Assembly: GCA_047947115.1 (NCBI GenBank)
Contig: CP170459.1
Coordinates: 2,528,001 to 2,592,000 of the forward strand
Direction of reading: 5' to 3'
Source: Verrucomicrobiota bacterium
GTDB lineage: Bacteria > Verrucomicrobiota > Verrucomicrobiia > Limisphaerales > AAA164-E04
DNA: 64,000 nt
Shown here one piece after another: positions 14,846 through 34,383 of this stretch. The notes under the pieces are model-generated. The model was not told where the DNA came from. It ran no database searches and saw nothing but the letters and a program-made list of their open reading frames with translations. Each line of letters starts with the position of its first letter. Position 1 is the stretch's first letter. The position numbers and the translations under genes are program-made.

Positions 14846-16093
14846 TTATGGGTTCCCTGACATTTCCAGGCAGACCAATCGTTCGGGACTGCGTGCCAGA
14901 AACATTCCGTTCGAAAAAGCAGGAAACGCACGCACGCCTGAAGGAAGGATTTGTCTGCGACTCAGGGTTCGGAAGGTATCGGGCGAAGCTTCGATGAGGA
15001 TCAATTCACCGGATTCCATCATGAGCAGCAACTGATCGTTGACGCAAATCACCGATCCTGCTCCCAGGTTGTCTTCGCTCCATTGAACCTTTCCGGTGAC
15101 GGCTTCGATGCAGCGGAATTCAGGTCCATATTCCTGGCGGCCGTGGAATCCATAGAGGTATCCTTGATGGTAAACACAGGTGGCATAGTGGTTGGATATT
15201 TGATCGTCCCCCGACCAAACGCGATTGAGCGAATCCCCCTCGCGTTTGACCAACACAGCACCCGCACCATAGCTGGCGGAGACAAACACGCCTTCGGGAA
15301 GAATTAGTGGAGTGGCTGCGTTGACCGATGCGTTCATGGAGGAACGCCATGGCATAGAGGCCAGGATTTGCCCTGAGGCTGGTTCCATGGTGTAAAGTTT
15401 TTCGCGCGTCCAGATCCATAAGGCGGGATCGTTGTTTTTATTGTCCAGAACGGGGGATGCATAGCCGGCTTCATCGGATGTTGCTTTCCACGCAAGTTTG
15501 CCGGTGTTGCGATCCAATGCAACCACCCCCGAGCCGTCCTGTCCCCCGATGATGAAGACGACCACATCACCTACCGCCAGCGGAGACGGGGCCATGCCAA
15601 AGAATCCTTTACCACTTTTCCAAGTGGATTTGGCGTCCATCTCCCATCGCTTTTTCCCGGAGTTTTTTTCGACAGCCGAGAGCATGCCATCGGCACTCAT
15701 GAGAAAAATGGAATCACCATCCACGCAAGGAGTGGCTCGTGGGCCGTTGTCGAAACCAAAGTCATCCCGGTATTGGGTTGGGTGTTGATAACGCCAGTTT
15801 CTTTCGCCTGACTGGAGGTCGATGCTGTCCAGGGTGCTTTGAGTTCCAAGGCGGTGGTAAAGAAAAACTGTTTTATTGTAAATGACCGGTCCGCTGAAAC
15901 CGCTTCCGACTTTTTGTTCCCATTGTTTTTTGGGCGGCTGGGTTTTCCAGTTGCTTCGAATGGTTTCGTTGGAGGCAGCACCGTTTCGGTTTGGGCCAAG
16001 GAACTGGGGCCATTCGCCGCCCTGAGAAAATGTTGTGAAGGCGCATGCCAGCAGGCTTGTGGTCAGCAAAATGGTATGGGGTACGGTGCGCAT
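14846..16093 (-). CDS. Secreted PQQ-binding-like beta-propeller protein
   Basis: Signal peptide then WPQFLGPNRNG; repeated xxGkxxW propeller blades; GPRATP and YASP motifs. Start at MRTVPH (16093) is supported by the upstream promoter; the ORF track starts at 16198. Confidence 0.85.
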   Translation of the reverse strand: MRTVPHTILLTTSLLACAFTTFSQGGEWPQFLGPNRNGAASNETIRSNWKTQPPKKQWEQKVGSGFSGPVIYNKTVFLYHRLGTQSTLDSIDLQSGERNWRYQHPTQYRDDFGFDNGPRATPCVDGDSIFLMSADGMLSAVEKNSGKKRWEMDAKSTWKSGKGFFGMAPSPLAVGDVVVFIIGGQDGSGVVALDRNTGKLAWKATSDEAGYASPVLDNKNNDPALWIWTREKLYTMEPASGQILASMPWRSSMNASVNAATPLILPEGVFVSASYGAGAVLVKREGDSLNRVWSGDDQISNHYATCVYHQGYLYGFHGRQEYGPEFRCIEAVTGKVQWSEDNLGAGSVICVNDQLLLMMESGELILIEASPDTFRTLSRRQILPSGVRAFPAFSNGMFLARSPERLVCLEMSGNP

Positions 16094-16264
16094 GGGGTGA
16101 TTATGGGGGATTTGGATTTCACCTTGCAAGAGCAGAGGGGAGGGATAAGGAGGGTTGTTTGAATAGAGCTGAAATGTCTGTCGTCCAAATCGCATCAAAC
16201 CCGGGGTTCCAATTGAAACAAACTGAACAGAATCATTGTAACATTAGCGATTCATCCATTCATT

Positions 16265-16498
16265 ATGAAACAAATCAATATCTTGAAGGCAACTTTATGC
16301 GTTGCGTTGGCTGGCATCTTTGCCATGGGCACAACAGGCTGTGTGGTGAGTTTGGGGAACAAGGGAACCCCTCGCCATTCTGAAGAAACTACCCTCGGCC
16401 AGGAACTGATCGACCTGAAGGCGGCGAGAGATTCCGGGGCGTTGACGCCTGATGAGTATGAATACGAACGGCGGAGATTGTTGGATCATCGTGATTGA
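16265..16498 (+). CDS. Small lipoprotein with a SHOCT domain
   Basis: Signal peptide with lipobox TTG-C; C-terminal LGQELIDLKAARDSGALTPDEYEYERRRLL matches the SHOCT pattern. Confidence 0.85.
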   Translation: MKQINILKATLCVALAGIFAMGTTGCVVSLGNKGTPRHSEETTLGQELIDLKAARDSGALTPDEYEYERRRLLDHRD

Positions 16499-16504
16499 TG
16501 GGTG

Positions 16505-17170
16505 CTGCAGGTAGATCGGACCGTCCCCGGTCCGTCCCCGCTAGCGACAGCTACGCGGATGTGGGGATTTGGATGCTGCGGGGTATTCCTTTGGATGTTG
16601 ATATGCAGGGTAAGGAAGTCACAAGGGTTGCGCGCCGAGACGCCACGCTCTACCTGAGGACGCCATCGGGCCTCGCATCAATTCACCATTCACTATTTTA
16701 AATTCACTATTTAAAAGGGGACGGCACGATCTACCCGGGGTATACTGCAGGTAGATCGGACCGTCCCCGGTCCGTCTCCGCTAGCGACAGCTACGCGGAT
16801 GTGGGGATTTGGATGCTGCGGGGTATTCCTTTGGATGTTGATATGCAGGGTAAGGAAGCCACAAGGGTTGCGCGCCGAGACGCCACGCTCTACCTGAGGA
16901 CGCCATCGGTCCTCGCATCAATTCACTATTTAAAAGGGGACGGCACGATCTACCCGGGGTATACTGCAGGTAGATCGGACCGTCTCGGTCCGTCCCCGCT
17001 AGCGACAGCTACGCGGATATGGGGATTTGGATGCTGTGGGGTATTCCTTTGGATGTTGATATGCAGGGTAAGGAAGCCACAAGGGTTGCGCGCCGAGACG
17101 CCACGCTCTACCTGAGGACGCCATCGGGCCCCACTTCAATTCGCTATTCACCATTTTGAATTCACTATTT
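16505..17170. repeat. Tandem array of three REP-based mosaic units (BIME/REPIN-like)
   Basis: Near-identical units start at 16505, 16745 and 16964 (periods 240 and 219 bp). Each has a GGTAGATCGGACCGTCCCCGGTCCG hairpin, an inverted copy (GCGCGCCGAGACGCCACGCTCTACC) and heptamer repeats; units 1-2 also carry a half copy (GGGGACGGCACGATCTACC). Confidence 0.9.
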
Positions 17171-17206
17171 AAAAAAGGGGCGGATCTTTTGGATCCGCCC
17201 CTTTTT
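17171..17206. terminator. Bidirectional rho-independent terminator downstream of gyrA
   Basis: AAAAAAGGGGCGGATC-TTTTG-GATCCGCCCCTTTTT perfect stem with A and T tails. Confidence 0.9.
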
Positions 17207-17245
17207 CGTTTTTTAATTCAATGGAAAGAATTTGATCTTCGGCGC

Positions 17246-19939
17246 CTACTTGGTGGGTTCATCGGTTGCTTCGGGGCTTTCGCCTTCGGAGGCTTCCGGA
17301 GTTTCCGTGTTTTCGGTGTCGCTTGATTCCTCATCGGATTCGGAGTCTTCGTCGTCCTCGTTTTCATCGTTGATGACCGGGGCGATGGCCTGGAGTTTGT
17401 CTTTGGAACCAGTGTCGACCAGTTTGACCCCCATGGCGTTGCGGCCGGTTTCTCGGACGTCGTCGACCTTGATGCGGACCATTTGACCACCCACGGTGAT
17501 CAGCATGATTTCGTCATGATCATGAACCGTCAGGGCTCCGACGATGCCACCGCTTTTCTCGCCTGTTCGCATGGTGATGATGCCCTTTCCACCACGTGTT
17601 TGTCGGCGGTAGTCTTCGAAGTCGGTTCGTTTGCCGATTCCTTTTTCGCTGGCAACCAGGAGAGTGGCGCCTTCTTCCACGATGGCCAGTGCGACCACAC
17701 GGTCGTCTTTCCCCAGTGAAATGCCGCGAACGCCAGTTGTGGCGCGTCCCATGGATCGGGCGTCGGATTCGAGGAAGCGAATGCTCTTGCCGTTGCTCGT
17801 GATGAGAACGACTTCATTATCACCTGATGTCAGTTTGACTTCGATCAGGCGGTCCTCATCGAGAATGTTGATTGCCTTGATGCCTCCTTTACGGTGGTTC
17901 TTGAAGGCGGACAGTTCGGTTTTCTTGACCGTTCCGTTTTCGGTGGCGAACAAGAGGAATCCGGGTTGTTCCCAGGTGATGTCCTTCTTCGCTTCGTCGG
18001 TTTGTGATTCCACACGGATCAAAGCTGCCACTTTTTCGTCGGGCTGGAGTTCCAGCACGTTGGCGATGGAACGTCCCTGAGCGGTTCGGCTCATTTCAGG
18101 CACTTCGTGCACACGTTCCACGAATACACGTCCGGTGTTGGTGAAGAACATCAGGTAATCGTGGGTGCTGGCTGTGAACAGGTGTTCGACGAAGTCTTTG
18201 TTTTTGCCATCCACAACACTCTTGCTTTTGGTGGCCATGCCGATCACACCTTTGCCACCCCGGCGCTGGGCACGGTATTCGGTGAGGTTGGTGCGTTTGA
18301 TCAGGCCGTTGTGCGTCAGAGTGATGATGACCGGTTCGTTGGCGATCAGATCTTCAATCAGCATATTGCCGTGGAAGGGGATCAGTTCGGAACGGCGATC
18401 GGTCGCATATTTATCGCGGACGCGTTGGAGTTCTTCTTTGATGATTGCCAGGACGCGGACTTCACGGGCAAGGATATCCATCAGGTCCTTGATGGTTTCC
18501 AGCAGTTCGCCGTATTCCTTTTTGACCTTGTCTGTTTCCATGCCGGTCAACTGGTAGAGACGCAGTTCCAGGATGGCGTTGACTTGTGCTTCGCTCAATT
18601 CGTAGCGGCCGTTGACCAAGCGTGCTTCGCTGTGGATGAGGATGCCGAATTGTTCGACTGTTTCACGTGCAAATTCGTAGGCGAGCAGTTTGGTCTTGGC
18701 TTCTTCGCGGTTGGCGGATTCGCGAATGATGCGAATGAAGTCGTCAAGGTTGGCCAGTGCGATGAGGTAACCCTCCAGGATCTCGGCGCGTGCTTCGGCC
18801 TTTTTCAGTTCATAACGCGTGCGTCGCAACACCACCTCTCGACGGTGTTCGATGTAGCAATTGATGATCTCTTTGAGGTTTAGCGTTTTTGGCTTTTGAT
18901 GGTCAATCGCCAGCATGTTCACGCTGAAAGTCGTCTCCAGTTGCGTGTATTTATAGAGATTGTTGATGACGACTTTTGGAATGGCATCCCGCTTTAGTTC
19001 AATGACCAGGCGTGTGTTTTCGTCTGATTCATTTCGCAAGGCGGAGATCTCGGTGATGATTTTTTCATTCACCAGTTGGGCAATGCGTTCTTCCAATACG
19101 GCGCGGTTGACGTTGAACGGAATTTCCGTGATGACAATCTGTTCGCGTCCGGTCTTGGTGTTTTCCACTTCAACCCGACCGCGGATGCGGAGACTGCCAC
19201 GTCCGGTGTGAAAATATTGTCGGATGGGATCCAGTCCGCAAATCTGACAACCACTTGGGAAATCCGGGCCTTTGATGTATTCCATCAGGCCGTCAATGGT
19301 AATGCTTGGGTTATCGATCTGGGCACAGATACCATCAACCACTTCCCCGAGGTTGTGAGGGGGAATGTTGGTAGCCATCCCGACTGCGATGCCCGTTCCA
19401 CCGTTGACGAGGAGGTTGGGAAATGAAGATGGGAAGACGGATGGTTCCACGGTGGAATCATCGTAGTTGGGAACGAAATCCACGGTGTCTTTCTCCATGT
19501 CATCCATCAGGATGGATCCCAGATGGGTCATGCGAGCTTCCGTATAACGCATGGAAGCGGGTGGATCTCCTTCCACTGAGCCGAAATTTCCCTGACCTTC
19601 AATCAAGGTATCGCGCATGGCCCATGGTTGAGCCATGTGCACGAGTGTCGGGTAGATCGCCTGATCCCCGTGGGGGTGGTAGTTACCCATGGTTTCCCCG
19701 ACAATCTTGGCACACTTGATGTGCTTTTTGCTGGGACCAACGCCGAGGTCGTTCATCGCGTAAAGGATGCGGCGTTGGGAAGGTTTGAGTCCGTCTCGAA
19801 CGTCGGGCAGTGCACGCGAGATGATGACCGACATGGAGTAATCGAGAAACGAGTTCTTGATTTCGTCGGCGACGTTGATCTTTTCGATACGGCCGCCTGA
19901 CGGTGGTGTTGTAGGTGGTGTGGAATCGGATTCCGCCAT
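17246..19939 (-). CDS. gyrA: DNA gyrase subunit A
   Basis: RALPDVRDGLKP, YHPHGD, catalytic MRYTE, GyrA-box QRRGGKG, C-terminal pinwheel repeats and acidic tail. Confidence 0.98.
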   Translation of the reverse strand: MAESDSTPPTTPPSGGRIEKINVADEIKNSFLDYSMSVIISRALPDVRDGLKPSQRRILYAMNDLGVGPSKKHIKCAKIVGETMGNYHPHGDQAIYPTLVHMAQPWAMRDTLIEGQGNFGSVEGDPPASMRYTEARMTHLGSILMDDMEKDTVDFVPNYDDSTVEPSVFPSSFPNLLVNGGTGIAVGMATNIPPHNLGEVVDGICAQIDNPSITIDGLMEYIKGPDFPSGCQICGLDPIRQYFHTGRGSLRIRGRVEVENTKTGREQIVITEIPFNVNRAVLEERIAQLVNEKIITEISALRNESDENTRLVIELKRDAIPKVVINNLYKYTQLETTFSVNMLAIDHQKPKTLNLKEIINCYIEHRREVVLRRTRYELKKAEARAEILEGYLIALANLDDFIRIIRESANREEAKTKLLAYEFARETVEQFGILIHSEARLVNGRYELSEAQVNAILELRLYQLTGMETDKVKKEYGELLETIKDLMDILAREVRVLAIIKEELQRVRDKYATDRRSELIPFHGNMLIEDLIANEPVIITLTHNGLIKRTNLTEYRAQRRGGKGVIGMATKSKSVVDGKNKDFVEHLFTASTHDYLMFFTNTGRVFVERVHEVPEMSRTAQGRSIANVLELQPDEKVAALIRVESQTDEAKKDITWEQPGFLLFATENGTVKKTELSAFKNHRKGGIKAINILDEDRLIEVKLTSGDNEVVLITSNGKSIRFLESDARSMGRATTGVRGISLGKDDRVVALAIVEEGATLLVASEKGIGKRTDFEDYRRQTRGGKGIITMRTGEKSGGIVGALTVHDHDEIMLITVGGQMVRIKVDDVRETGRNAMGVKLVDTGSKDKLQAIAPVINDENEDDEDSESDEESSDTENTETPEASEGESPEATDEPTK

Positions 19940-26000: not shown

Positions 26001-26508
26001 GGGACAGGCGAAATTGAATCAAATCCAGGACACCATTCACAATCTGGAACAACAGTTTGTGGCCAGCAAAACCAATCTGGATGTTGCCTACAAGCTCATG
26101 TCCAATTACGTGCTCACCATGCGGACCAATGAGGCCATTGTGGTGATGGATGAATTATTGGCCGACCCGAATGCGCCTGCTGAAACCATTCTGACCGTGG
26201 CTTCCGCTTACAACGATCTCAAGCAATATGATCGATTGGAAAATGCGCTGATTCGATTGGTGGAGGTGATTCCCGACAATCCAGAAGCCTGGTTCGACCT
26301 GGCAGGAACCCAGGCCTTGATGGGAAAACATCAGCTGGCTTTGCAGACCCTGAGCAAGACCATGGAGTTGAGCCGTGCCCGCAAATTGAAGAATCCTGAG
26401 GCGGTGGATTTGGCCCGTAAAGCGAGAGCGGACACACGGTTCAATGCCATGAAGGTGTTACCTGAGTTTCAGAAGATCCTAAATGGCACACCTTTGAATG
26501 GTGAATAG
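23086..26508 (+). CDS. DUF2723 (TMEM260-like) GT-C glycosyltransferase with C-terminal TPRs
   Basis: APDVTLEDSGEL...GVPHPPGYP, WSQAVIVEVYTL and PPMNW motifs; many TM helices; TPR-like C-terminus. Start placed at MSKNTK (23086); the ORF track starts at 23008. Confidence 0.85.
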   Translation: MSKNTKSKSTNPAERPQGTATSTTGSYDEAGRFSGRFFRKVDWQTAGFTALFVFIGYLLSIAPDVTLEDSGELSVGSFYAGVPHPPGYPVWTLYTWLFTVLVPVSNIAFRVALSSAVAAAAACGLLSLMVSRGSSMIVEGMEELKGMNRSLEDWICRVSGWVAGMLLGFNGFMWSQAVIVEVYTLSVLSLMGVLVCLMHWVYVPERKKYLYWAFFLFGICFNNHQTLIVAAMGLEVAIAAVNIRLGRDLFLFNSVIYLLGLIAKWNGMLTAFDQNIPLFVIYNAVGIASIGVFVWAWNRTQEVLTEWVPLVIIAAVFLLGASFYFYMPIASSTNPPMNWAYPRTWDGFVHAFSRGQYERANPTSSPLRFIQQMYLYFKGAGSEFSPVMLLIGLVPFFCWKRMAKRERAWMTGLMAVFFCLAVILMILLNPPPDKQSQDLNRVFFTSSHVLIAIFMGYGVALIASFLARQYEAQRLPALTGGAIAVALAIYGKLGLERVHPLDQFTAFYGILLSVAFILIFGLSRSKAPMKAILLIFALAPFYSVMSHWWENEQRGHLFGYWFGHDMFSPPFEVYPEMAEDAILFGGTDPGRFNPTYMIFCESFIPASKKPRDPDFDRRDVRIITQNALADGTYLDYIRAHYFRSAQRDLPFFQEMLRSSKEKELNQSTNWMARASAPLDNAMTSFGAYVEQKRKDRGVYPSKEIYTPSHEDSEKAYLDYMADAAQRKMSGHLKPGEIVTETPDGRISVQGQAAVMAINAILAKIIFDKNPGHEFYIEESMPLEWMYPHLTPFGIIMKINREEVPVITEEMLKKDHQFWSQYMNRLVGDWVKYDTPIEDIVKFADDVYLKGDLSAFKGDTKFVRDDWAQKAFSKLRSGIAGIYAWRLGPQCPKHLQPKTVEEEQRLLEEADYAFRQALVLCPYSPEAVFRYSNLLAMTQRVDDAIMITEKCFEFDYENEGVRQLLQQLHRMKQGQAKLNQIQDTIHNLEQQFVASKTNLDVAYKLMSNYVLTMRTNEAIVVMDELLADPNAPAETILTVASAYNDLKQYDRLENALIRLVEVIPDNPEAWFDLAGTQALMGKHQLALQTLSKTMELSRARKLKNPEAVDLARKARADTRFNAMKVLPEFQKILNGTPLNGE

Positions 26509-26529
26509 TGAATTTTAAATGGTGAAATT
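26495..26529 (+). repeat. 7-bp-period GTGAAT motif overlapping the DUF2723 stop codon
   Basis: TGAATGGTGAATAGTGAATTTTAAATGGTGAAATT. Confidence 0.7.
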
Positions 26530-26542
26530 CCGAACGTTGGTG

Positions 26543-26750
26543 TGCAGGTAGATCGGAACGTCCCGGTCCGCTCCCGCTGGCGACAGCTACGCGGATGTGG
26601 GGAGTTGGATGCTTTGGGGTATTCCTTTGGATGTTGCTATGCTGGGGAAGCAAACCGCAAGGATTGCGCGCCGAGACGCCACACTCTACCTTTGGACACT
26701 ACCCGTCTTCACTTCAATTCACTATTTAAAAAGGGACGACACGTTCTACT
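26543..26750. repeat. Diverged solo copy of the REP mosaic unit
   Basis: Collinear with the 16.5-kb unit: GGTAGATCGGAACGTCCCGGTCCG...GCGACAGCTACGCGGATGTGGGGA...GCGCGCCGAGACGCCACACTCTACC...AATTCACTATTTAAAAAGGGACGACACGTTCTAC. Confidence 0.88.
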
Positions 26751-32052: not shown

Positions 32053-32091
32053 AATTCACCATTCTAAATTCACTATTCACTATTCGTAATT
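32051..32091 (-). repeat. 7-bp-period GTGAAT motif overlapping the ABC exporter stop codon
   Basis: Minus strand ...CGAATAGTGAATAGTGAATTTAGAATGGTGAATTAA. Confidence 0.7.
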
Positions 32092-34175: not shown

Positions 34176-34383
34176 GGTAGAGCTGACCGTCCCGGTCCGC
34201 ACCTTGTGGCTTACGTGATCAAAAAGGTCATCCAAAGGAAATCCTGAGGTGGAGTCATCGCGTTGGCCTTATCGGGGAGCATCGAAAGTAACAGTTTATT
34301 GAGAATCGCAGGCTTTCCAAAACGGGAGTTGAACGAGCTGATGGATGCCTTAAGGAGGCGCGCCGAGGACGGCACGATCTACC
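34176..34383. repeat. REPIN-like element: two inverted GTAG REPs around a unique interior
   Basis: GGTAGAGCTGACCGTCCCGGTCCGC (34176-34200) and inverted GCGCGCCGAGGACGGCACGATCTACC (34358-34383). Confidence 0.8.

What the first reader, a model, noticed from the sequence alone, without database searches (positions are those of the whole stretch)
16505..17170. Tandem GTAG-REP mosaic array (BIME-like) directly downstream of gyrA
Seen: three near-identical units (240, 219 and about 207 bp). Each has a forward GGTAGA plus hairpin REP (CGGACCG-TCCC-CGGTCCG), a conserved interior of about 95 bp, an inverted diverged REP and a heptamer tract; units 1-2 end in an inverted half REP. Units 1 and 2 differ by exactly 21 bp, i.e. 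three heptamers. Known: GTAG plus hairpin is the signature of REPs mobilised by RAYT (TnpA-REP) HUH nucleases; REPINs and BIMEs are described mainly in Proteobacteria, and E. coli BIME-2 elements are gyrase targets. Inference: this is a recently amplified, possibly undescribed verrucomicrobial REPIN/BIME family. Two of its three loci sit between convergent genes, which fits a role in topology or RNA 3'-end protection. No RAYT gene is in the window.
Basis: partly seen in the sequence, partly recalled or inferred. Interest (0 to 1): 0.7.

Follow-up and report, generated by a model that had tools for sequence, protein, structure and literature searches.

The report
Triplicated REP hairpin repeat beside gyrA
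Three near-identical copies of a hairpin repeat sit between a small gene and the hairpin that likely terminates gyrA; they belong to a genome-wide repeat family with a matching transposase-like gene elsewhere and were likely multiplied locally from the single copy seen in a sister genome, an ordinary case of a known repeat type with no sign of a link to gyrase.

Summary
The array is real. Three units (240, 219, about 211 bp) each hold an inverted GTAG-REP pair; the unit junction also occurs in contigs from four separate studies. The REPs belong to a family of about 160 in this genome. A REP-associated tyrosine transposase (RAYT) gene flanked by the same REPs lies about 1 Mb away; it carries a premature stop here, is full-length in close relatives and is missing in others. 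A sister genome has one unit at the same site, so the triplication is local and recent; one-unit gains or losses occur at other shared sites. This matches published tandem REPIN/BIME clusters, and GTAG-REPs were already reported in a verrucomicrobium. A gyrase link is unsupported: a strong terminator-like hairpin separates gyrA from the array and other relatives lack REPs there. The twist: each unit carries a heptamer arm of a second repeat family (the one around a four-helix-bundle gene, noted by this scan on other genomes), fused to a REP cut in its loop; 27 of 39 such arms lie next to REP-derived DNA. New member of a known kind; interest 0.3.

The parts
16265..16498 (+). 77-codon SHOCT-like gene, the gene whose 3' end the array follows; convergent with gyrA
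   Evidence: PF09851 E=1e-4, below the curated cut-off; same protein in sister genome G001
16505..16744 (+). Unit 1 (240 bp): REP pair, linker, five-heptamer arm, half REP, spacer
16745..16963 (+). Unit 2 (219 bp): as unit 1, three heptamers shorter
16964..17174 (+). Unit 3 (about 211 bp): ends in the A-run of the terminator-like hairpin, no half REP; same end as the single copy in G001
16511..16534 (+). Forward REP: GTAG, 2 unpaired bases, perfect 7-bp stem (copies at 16751 and 16970)
   Evidence: (z=-3.8)
16631..16653 (-). Inverted REP of a second sequence type (copies ending at 16893 and 17111)
16681..16716 (+). Heptamer arm of a second repeat family (also 16920-16935 and 17139-17174); same heptamer flanks a four-helix-bundle gene elsewhere in the genome
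16717..16744 (-). Junction: third REP type cut in its hairpin loop and fused to the T-run of the heptamer arm, plus the spacer of a back-to-back REP dimer (17-bp GTAG spacing); repeated at 16936-16963; 24 bp of it are absent from the G001 site
   Evidence: present in contigs of 4 of 4 runs laid
17172..17206 (.). Terminator-like hairpin (16-bp stem, T-runs on both strands) between the array and gyrA
   Evidence: z=-6.5 and -7.8; kept in G001
17246..19939 (-). gyrA (neighbour only)
   Evidence: TIGR01063 and NF004043 above cut-off
26493..26750 (+). Single paralogous unit (87% over the core) enclosed by an inverted pair of heptamer arms and ending in a half REP; between convergent genes
34177..34382 (+). 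Long-class REP pair (205-bp spacing) of the same family, between co-directional genes

Best explanation
The array is a tandem cluster of inverted GTAG-REP pairs (REPINs) from a genome-wide family that is likely mobilised by the RAYT encoded about 1 Mb away, and it likely arose recently by local amplification of one resident copy, probably without a function for gyrA. Shown: family membership, a RAYT gene flanked by the same REPs, a single copy at the same site in a sister genome, and a junction that is a back-to-back REP dimer with one REP cut in its loop. Inferred: a REP-containing strand from another family member was joined to the T-run at the end of the resident unit, most likely by RAYT cleavage and strand transfer at a C|T step on single-stranded DNA (about 55%) or else by microhomology-guided template switching (about 45%); the unit-plus-junction was then copied head to tail by the same reaction or by unequal recombination. 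The heptamer arm was carried along as flanking DNA. Any effect on the cell would most likely be as hairpins in the 3' untranslated region of the small upstream gene.
For: 157-167 family REPs at 110 loci, 0 in two controls. 28 inward-facing pairs fall mainly in two size classes (11 at 135-142 bp, 14 at 202-206 bp); 12 back-to-back dimers have 16-18 bp spacing, as has the junction. Of 7 Y1-type genes only C1:1508067-1508560 has family REPs within 1 kb; HUH and Tyr motifs, NF047646 E=4e-17, profile hit to E. coli TnpA-REP 4er8 E=5e-15, and a homolog's model matches 4er8 best (TM 0.72). G001 (GyrA 98% identical) has one unit with the same left end and hairpin and no half REP. One-unit differences of 179-222 bp at other G000/G001 sites, e.g. 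L126, L137, L162, L172. Other tandem arrays in the same genome. All five half-REP fusions (four loci) join a C to a T; E. coli TnpA-REP cuts and joins at C|T and builds tandem BIMEs in vitro (PMC3333891, passages). Tandem REPIN clusters that include flanking DNA are the commonest higher-order form in P. fluorescens (PMC3116915, passages).
Against: No activity was tested. The RAYT allele in this genome stops 14 codons early at a Trp kept in 100 of 101 homologs; the gene is absent at the same site in G001, which has more REPs (97 vs 50 exact matches), and in the population of run X1. It scores below the NF047646 cut-off (62.5 vs 80 bits). The C|T junction also lies in a 3-4 bp microhomology, so it does not single out the RAYT. 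G001 is a 220-contig assembly, 88% complete, so collapse of a tandem array or loss of two units there cannot be fully excluded, although its single unit lacks the junction bases that a collapse could retain. The two REPs of a pair differ, so the unit does not fold into one long hairpin.
Confidence: 0.75

Rival explanations
1. The family is RAYT-derived, but this triplication was made by host processes alone (replication slippage or template switching at hairpins and RecA-type unequal exchange with paralogs), the RAYT being inactive or lost.
For: Premature stop in this genome's RAYT and RAYT-less alleles in G001 and run X1; microhomology at the junction; the paralog 9.6 kb away already carries arm plus half REP and could be the donor; weak patchwork signal, 3 sites grouping by genome against 1-2 by locus.
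Against: The junction needs 24 bp that are not at the single-copy site, so simple slippage is not enough; no exact donor for the spacer was found in the genome (nearest has 5 mismatches in 36); full-length RAYT alleles exist in close relatives, so the stop may be younger than the array.
Confidence: 0.3
2. The array is kept by selection as an RNA element: hairpins in the 3' region of the small plus-strand gene that protect its mRNA or damp clashes between convergent transcripts.
For: Family loci are enriched between convergent genes, 42 of 107 against 463 of 2977 intergenic regions (p=1e-8; home-made gene caller); the region folds better than shuffles (z=-7.8, terminator included).
Against: The same bias is general for REPs (PMC3733652) and is expected if such sites merely tolerate insertion; copy number differs between sister genomes; the core has diverged about 14% from G001 against 3-4% in adjacent DNA, which is not the mark of purifying selection; no Rfam family reached its gathering score.
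Confidence: 0.15
3. The array is a strong gyrase site like E. coli BIME-2, placed after gyrA for topological feedback on its expression.
For: Position next to gyrA in a convergent gap; BIME-2 elements are enriched in gyrase cleavage sites in E. coli (PMC6379681, passages).
Against: A terminator-like hairpin separates gyrA from the array; it lies at the far end of the gene from the promoter; 0 exact family REPs in 39 of 40 relatives searched, including five other genus members whose gyrA was found; it is one of 110 loci; the REPs are short stems, unlike the long bulged E. coli type described in PMC8266576.
Confidence: 0.06
4. The tandem copies are an assembly artefact of one real copy.
For: No single record spanned the whole array in the runs laid; the sister genome has one copy.
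Against: Unit-specific substitutions and heptamer numbers; the junction 16701-16774 is covered without differences in X1, X2 and X3 and spanned by a 208-nt contig in X7; the unit-2-specific stretch 16880-16949 is present in X1 and X3; the genome is one 6.08-Mb contig without N.
Confidence: 0.02

Closest known systems
Tandemly repeated REPIN clusters of Pseudomonas fluorescens SBW25 (PMC3116915)
   Same: Inverted GTAG-REP pairs repeated head to tail with their flanking DNA, up to about 700 bp; family-specific REPs beside a RAYT gene.
   Different: Here the two REPs of a pair are different sequence types and do not form one long hairpin; interiors are conserved and come in two classes (about 95 and 155 bp); the repeated flank is a heptamer arm; the junction REP is halved.
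E. coli BIME-2 arrays and the TnpA-REP REPtron (PMC3333891, PMC3479197, PMC6379681)
   Same: Mosaic of several REP types, copy-number variation at one locus between relatives, a Y1 HUH gene that some strains have lost, C|T-compatible junction.
   Different: Short 7-bp stems with 2 unpaired bases after GTAG rather than long bulged stems; RAYT from a different clade; no evidence for gyrase cleavage.
GTAG-17 to GTAG-20 families of Opitutus terrae (PMC3733652)
   Same: GTAG-tagged palindromes in a verrucomicrobium, several families per genome, each with its own RAYT-like gene; the paper also reports REP dimers nested in other palindromes in Anabaena.
   Different: O. terrae dimers named in the text have 1-2 bp spacers and many intragenic copies; here spacers are long and 107 of 110 loci are intergenic. 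The paper's consensus figure could not be seen, so sequence identity to those families was not tested.
Heptamer arms around four-helix-bundle (PF05635/TIGR02436) genes
   Same: The same heptamer flanks such a gene in this genome as an inverted pair.
   Different: The array has only the right-hand arm and no gene; most arms in this genome sit beside REP-derived DNA instead. No paper on these arms was found in two searches; earlier notes of this scan describe them.

Membership tests
GTAG-REP | GTAG 0-2 bases 5' of a short GC-rich hairpin | tested here: met
GTAG-REP | Many dispersed, mostly intergenic copies | tested here: met
   167 hits, 110 loci, 107 intergenic
REPIN / REPtron system | Inverted REP pairs at fixed spacing | tested here: met
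   25 of 28 pairs in two narrow classes
REPIN / REPtron system | Whole doublet folds into one long hairpin | tested here: inconclusive
   Only the outer 7-8 bp pair; each REP folds alone; z=-1.9 and -3.4
REPIN / REPtron system | RAYT gene flanked by the same REPs | tested here: met
   1 of 7 Y1 genes has family REPs within 1 kb
REPIN / REPtron system | REPs are cut and moved by that RAYT | not testable with these tools
   Needs biochemistry; indirect signs only
RAYT (TnpA-REP) | HUH motif, catalytic Tyr, TnpA-REP fold | tested here: met
   fold tested on homolog P0003
RAYT (TnpA-REP) | NCBIfam NF047646 curated cut-off | tested here: not met
   62.5 bits against 80; works-like claim unaffected
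RAYT (TnpA-REP) | Complete reading frame in this genome | tested here: not met
   Stop at a Trp kept in 100 of 101 homologs; 171 aa against 185 aa in 7 of 11 cluster members
TnpA-Y1 subclass 2.7 (PMC6006769) | Asp at the E100 position and no serine-bearing C-terminal extension | tested here: inconclusive
   Both features seen, but the subclass profiles were not available
BIME / tandem REPIN cluster | Near-identical units in tandem with copy number varying between relatives | tested here: met
   3 units against 1 in G001; similar cases
E. coli BIME-2 | Long bulged y/z2-type REPs | tested here: not met
   Forward REP is a perfect 7-bp stem, compared with the text description in PMC8266576; no sequence alignment to E. 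coli REPs was made
E. coli BIME-2 | Preferred gyrase cleavage site | not testable with these tools
   Needs Topo-seq
Heptamer-arm / four-helix-bundle cassette | Same heptamer as the arms around a PF05635 gene of the genome | tested here: met
Heptamer-arm / four-helix-bundle cassette | Inverted pair of arms enclosing the element | tested here: not met
   Only right arms in the array; both arms at the 26.5-kb paralog

The most novel reading that the evidence does not exclude
The RAYT of this REP family also moves the heptamer arms: REP-plus-arm modules are cut and joined at C|T steps and dropped beside terminator T-runs, so two repeat systems share one HUH pathway and the so-far unexplained heptamer hairpins gain a candidate mover. 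In favour: 27 of 39 arms lie within 150 bp of REP-derived DNA (5% of intergenic control), 25 of 27 face outward, five half-REP fusions join C to T, and one G001 site shows a 185-bp REP-plus-arm insertion before a terminator-like hairpin that is empty in G000. A further long shot: the truncated RAYT allele is deregulated rather than dead, as a shorter C-terminal deletion is in E. coli (PMC3479197).
Probability: 0.15. Interest if true: 0.65.

Novelty: new member of a known kind. Interest (0 to 1): 0.3.

Why it matters
As a REP/BIME family it extends a known system to another lineage and offers a clean natural comparison: one copy against three at one site, and RAYT alleles that are full-length, truncated or absent within one species group. 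That makes the open question of whether RAYTs build tandem arrays in vivo somewhat more testable. The link to heptamer arms would matter more if the RAYT proved to move them.

Tried and rejected
Gyrase link: rejected as above. Structured RNA family: 11 weak Rfam matches, none at gathering score, all overlapping the terminator-like hairpin. Viral origin: 0 exact REP matches in viral contigs. CRISPR-like array: rejected because the interiors are conserved, not unique. Coding function: the ORFs over the array shift frame with unit length and are not kept in G001. Exact donor for the junction spacer: none within 4 mismatches outside the array. Other Y1 genes as partner: nearest family REP 4.5-70 kb away. 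Concerted evolution with the 26.5-kb paralog: only 3 against 1-2 informative sites, not claimed. Faster divergence of the core than its flanks (21 of 153 against 21 of 381 third positions on the left, p=0.002; but 99 of 448 third positions in gyrA): ambiguous. Copy number from contig depth: not used, as the tool warns. RNA contigs: run X16 was laid only on the RAYT locus and gave no cover of the gene, which is no evidence on expression; no RNA run was laid on the array. Host phylum: not tested directly (one search gave no names); 22 of 27 RAYT-homolog loci are Verrucomicrobiota. My gene filter dropped the small gene and miscalled this array as co-directional; the count was corrected from 41 to 42. 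Locus L154 has an assembly gap and was not used as an indel case.

Full report
Observation. Unit 1 is 16505-16744, unit 2 is 16745-16963 and unit 3 runs from 16964 to about 17174. Units 1 and 2 differ by 3 substitutions and a 21-bp gap. Each unit has a forward GTAG-REP with a perfect 7-bp stem, an interior of about 96 bp, an inverted REP of another sequence type, a short linker and a heptamer tract; units 1 and 2 continue into half of a third REP type. The left neighbour is a 77-codon SHOCT-like gene on the plus strand. On the right, a hairpin with a 16-bp stem and T-runs on both strands (17172-17206) separates the array from gyrA. That it terminates gyrA is inferred from its form.

Not an artefact. 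In 4 of 4 metagenome runs from different studies the unit junction is present: 16701-16774 without differences in X1, X2 and X3, and a 208-nt contig across it in X7; the unit-2-specific stretch appears in X1 and X3. No listed record spans the whole array, so the exact copy number in those samples is open.

The family. The genome (one contig, 6.08 Mb) holds 157-167 REPs of this family depending on the patterns used, with 0 in the reversed genome and 0 in 2 Mb of simulated sequence. They form 110 loci, 107 intergenic. Of 28 inward-facing pairs, 11 are spaced 135-142 bp (the array's class) and 14 are spaced 202-206 bp. Twelve back-to-back dimers have 16-18 bp between their GTAG ends. Other tandem arrays exist, for example three 219-220-bp units at C1:2665436 and five 187-bp units at C1:1755625. 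Loci are enriched between convergent genes, 42 of 107 against 463 of 2977 (home-made gene caller, one miscall corrected). Among 40 relatives an exact degenerate pattern matched only G001 (97 hits, against 50 in this genome); many of these genomes are fragmented, so this is 'not found in those searched'.

The transposase. Seven Y1-type genes were found; only C1:1508067-1508560 has family REPs within 1 kb, with REP pairs on both sides. It has the HUH and tyrosine motifs, matches NF047646 at E=4e-17 but below the cut-off, and its clade matches E. coli TnpA-REP by profile (E=5e-15) and by the fold of a homolog (TM 0.72). Of 25 homolog loci examined (27 returned), 24 have a GT[AG]G hairpin near the gene under lenient criteria. 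In this genome the frame stops 14 codons early, at a Trp found in 100 of the 101 homologs that carry the motif (120 examined); 7 of 11 cluster members are 185 aa and the 171-aa member lies on a contig of this genome's length; a low-depth contig of run X5 reads Trp there. The gene is missing at the same site in G001 and in a depth-27 contig of run X1. Whether the stop inactivates it is untested: it removes a conserved Trp and the last strand of the model, but a shorter C-terminal deletion activates the E. coli enzyme (PMC3479197, passages).

History of the site. G001 (GyrA 98% identical) has one unit between the same small gene and the same hairpin, with the same left end and no half REP. The 24 junction bases are therefore not part of the single-copy site. 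The junction is a normal back-to-back dimer (17-bp spacing) whose left REP is cut in its loop and fused to the T-run of the heptamer arm. Five such fusions at four loci exist in the genome, each joining C to T. To see how general copy-number change is, I fetched 60 REP-centred stretches of G001; 44 had both flanks syntenic in this genome: 17 had no family REP detected here, 14 the same number, 10 fewer and 3 more (the sample is biased toward G001 REPs). In 15 alignments inspected, L126, L137, L162 and L172 differ by whole units of 179-222 bp, and L139 shows a 185-bp REP-plus-arm insertion before a terminator-like hairpin; several others aligned poorly.

The heptamer arm. It is a separate repeat. 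The same heptamer flanks a four-helix-bundle gene (TIGR02436, PF05635) as an inverted pair at C1:2824251, and a different heptamer flanks a second such gene. Of 39 tracts, 27 lie within 150 bp of REP-derived DNA (intergenic control 5%), 25 of the 27 facing outward; 3 of 23 such loci have both arms. Twelve tracts have no REP DNA nearby. Earlier notes of this scan describe heptamer arms and four-helix-bundle genes in other genomes; I had found the link here before reading them.

Mechanism. Shown steps: family, candidate RAYT, single-copy state in the sister genome, junction anatomy. Inferred steps: a strand from another REP dimer was joined to the end of the resident unit, then unit plus junction was copied twice. 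E. coli TnpA-REP cuts single-stranded DNA at C|T and joins the ends into tandem BIMEs in vitro (PMC3333891, passages), which fits the C-to-T fusions; but the fusion also lies in a short microhomology, so host template switching is nearly as good an explanation. I put 55% on the RAYT route. A role for gyrase is unlikely: BIME-2 cleavage is shown for E. coli (PMC6379681, passages), but here the hairpin shields gyrA, the position is not kept in the other relatives examined and it is one locus among 110.

Comparison with what is known. Tandem repeats of near-identical REPINs with their flanks are the commonest higher-order arrangement in P. fluorescens SBW25 (PMC3116915, passages). GTAG families 17-20 are reported for Opitutus terrae, with the convergent-gene bias and REP dimers nested in other palindromes (PMC3733652: parts 1, 2 and 4 of 8, passages, and a search of four supplements; its consensus figure and Additional files 4-5 were not visible and may bear on novelty). 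REP shape resembles the short perfect group 3 type (PMC8266576: part 1 of 7 and passages); the protein has features of subclass 2.7 (PMC6006769, passages), untested by profile. PMC4679880 (passages) gave nothing relevant. Searches found no description of this family, and none of the heptamer arms or the REP-punctuated gene cluster; the library lacks most subscription journals. The host phylum was not tested directly; 22 of 27 RAYT-homolog loci are Verrucomicrobiota.

Verdict. Real, well explained, a new member of a known kind. The composite with heptamer arms is the one feature worth following. Interest 0.3.

Noticed in passing
G000:C1:1339400-1354700 (L184), outside the window: A sugar-nucleotide gene cluster in which about a dozen small genes (nucleotidyltransferase, HepT-like, RelE, MqsA-like, AbiEii-like, UPF0150, HicA) are separated by mosaic spacers holding co-oriented REPs of this family and several nested inverted repeats. 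It looks like a REP-punctuated cassette array and may be more interesting than the finding itself.
   Followed up: partly
G000:C1:1755600-1756560: Five 187-bp units, each combining a REP of this family with an inverted palindrome of the kind that flanks a different Y1 gene (L004): a cross-family mosaic.
   Followed up: partly
G000:C1:1508067-1508850 (L006): The RAYT gene's 3' end runs into the second half of a long-class REP-pair interior; the gene is present, truncated or absent among close relatives.
   Followed up: partly
L041 (G001:C70:18339-18571): The inverted REP of the G001 copy has its 5' half replaced by another palindrome type (11 bp longer); similar half swaps occur at other loci.
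   Followed up: no
window about 15050-17600 against G001: Flanks are 3-4% diverged near the array, while flanks of most other shared loci are 70-95% identical: possibly a recent exchange between the two lineages.
   Followed up: no
window 32053-32090: Lone heptamer arm with no family REP within 300 bp.
   Followed up: partly
window 43485-45440: 108-bp coding repeats, by recall Sel1-like; not tested.
   Followed up: no
G000 genome-wide: A 40-copy repeat heads the k-mer list and by recall resembles a CRISPR repeat; several other REP families accompany other Y1 genes.
   Followed up: no
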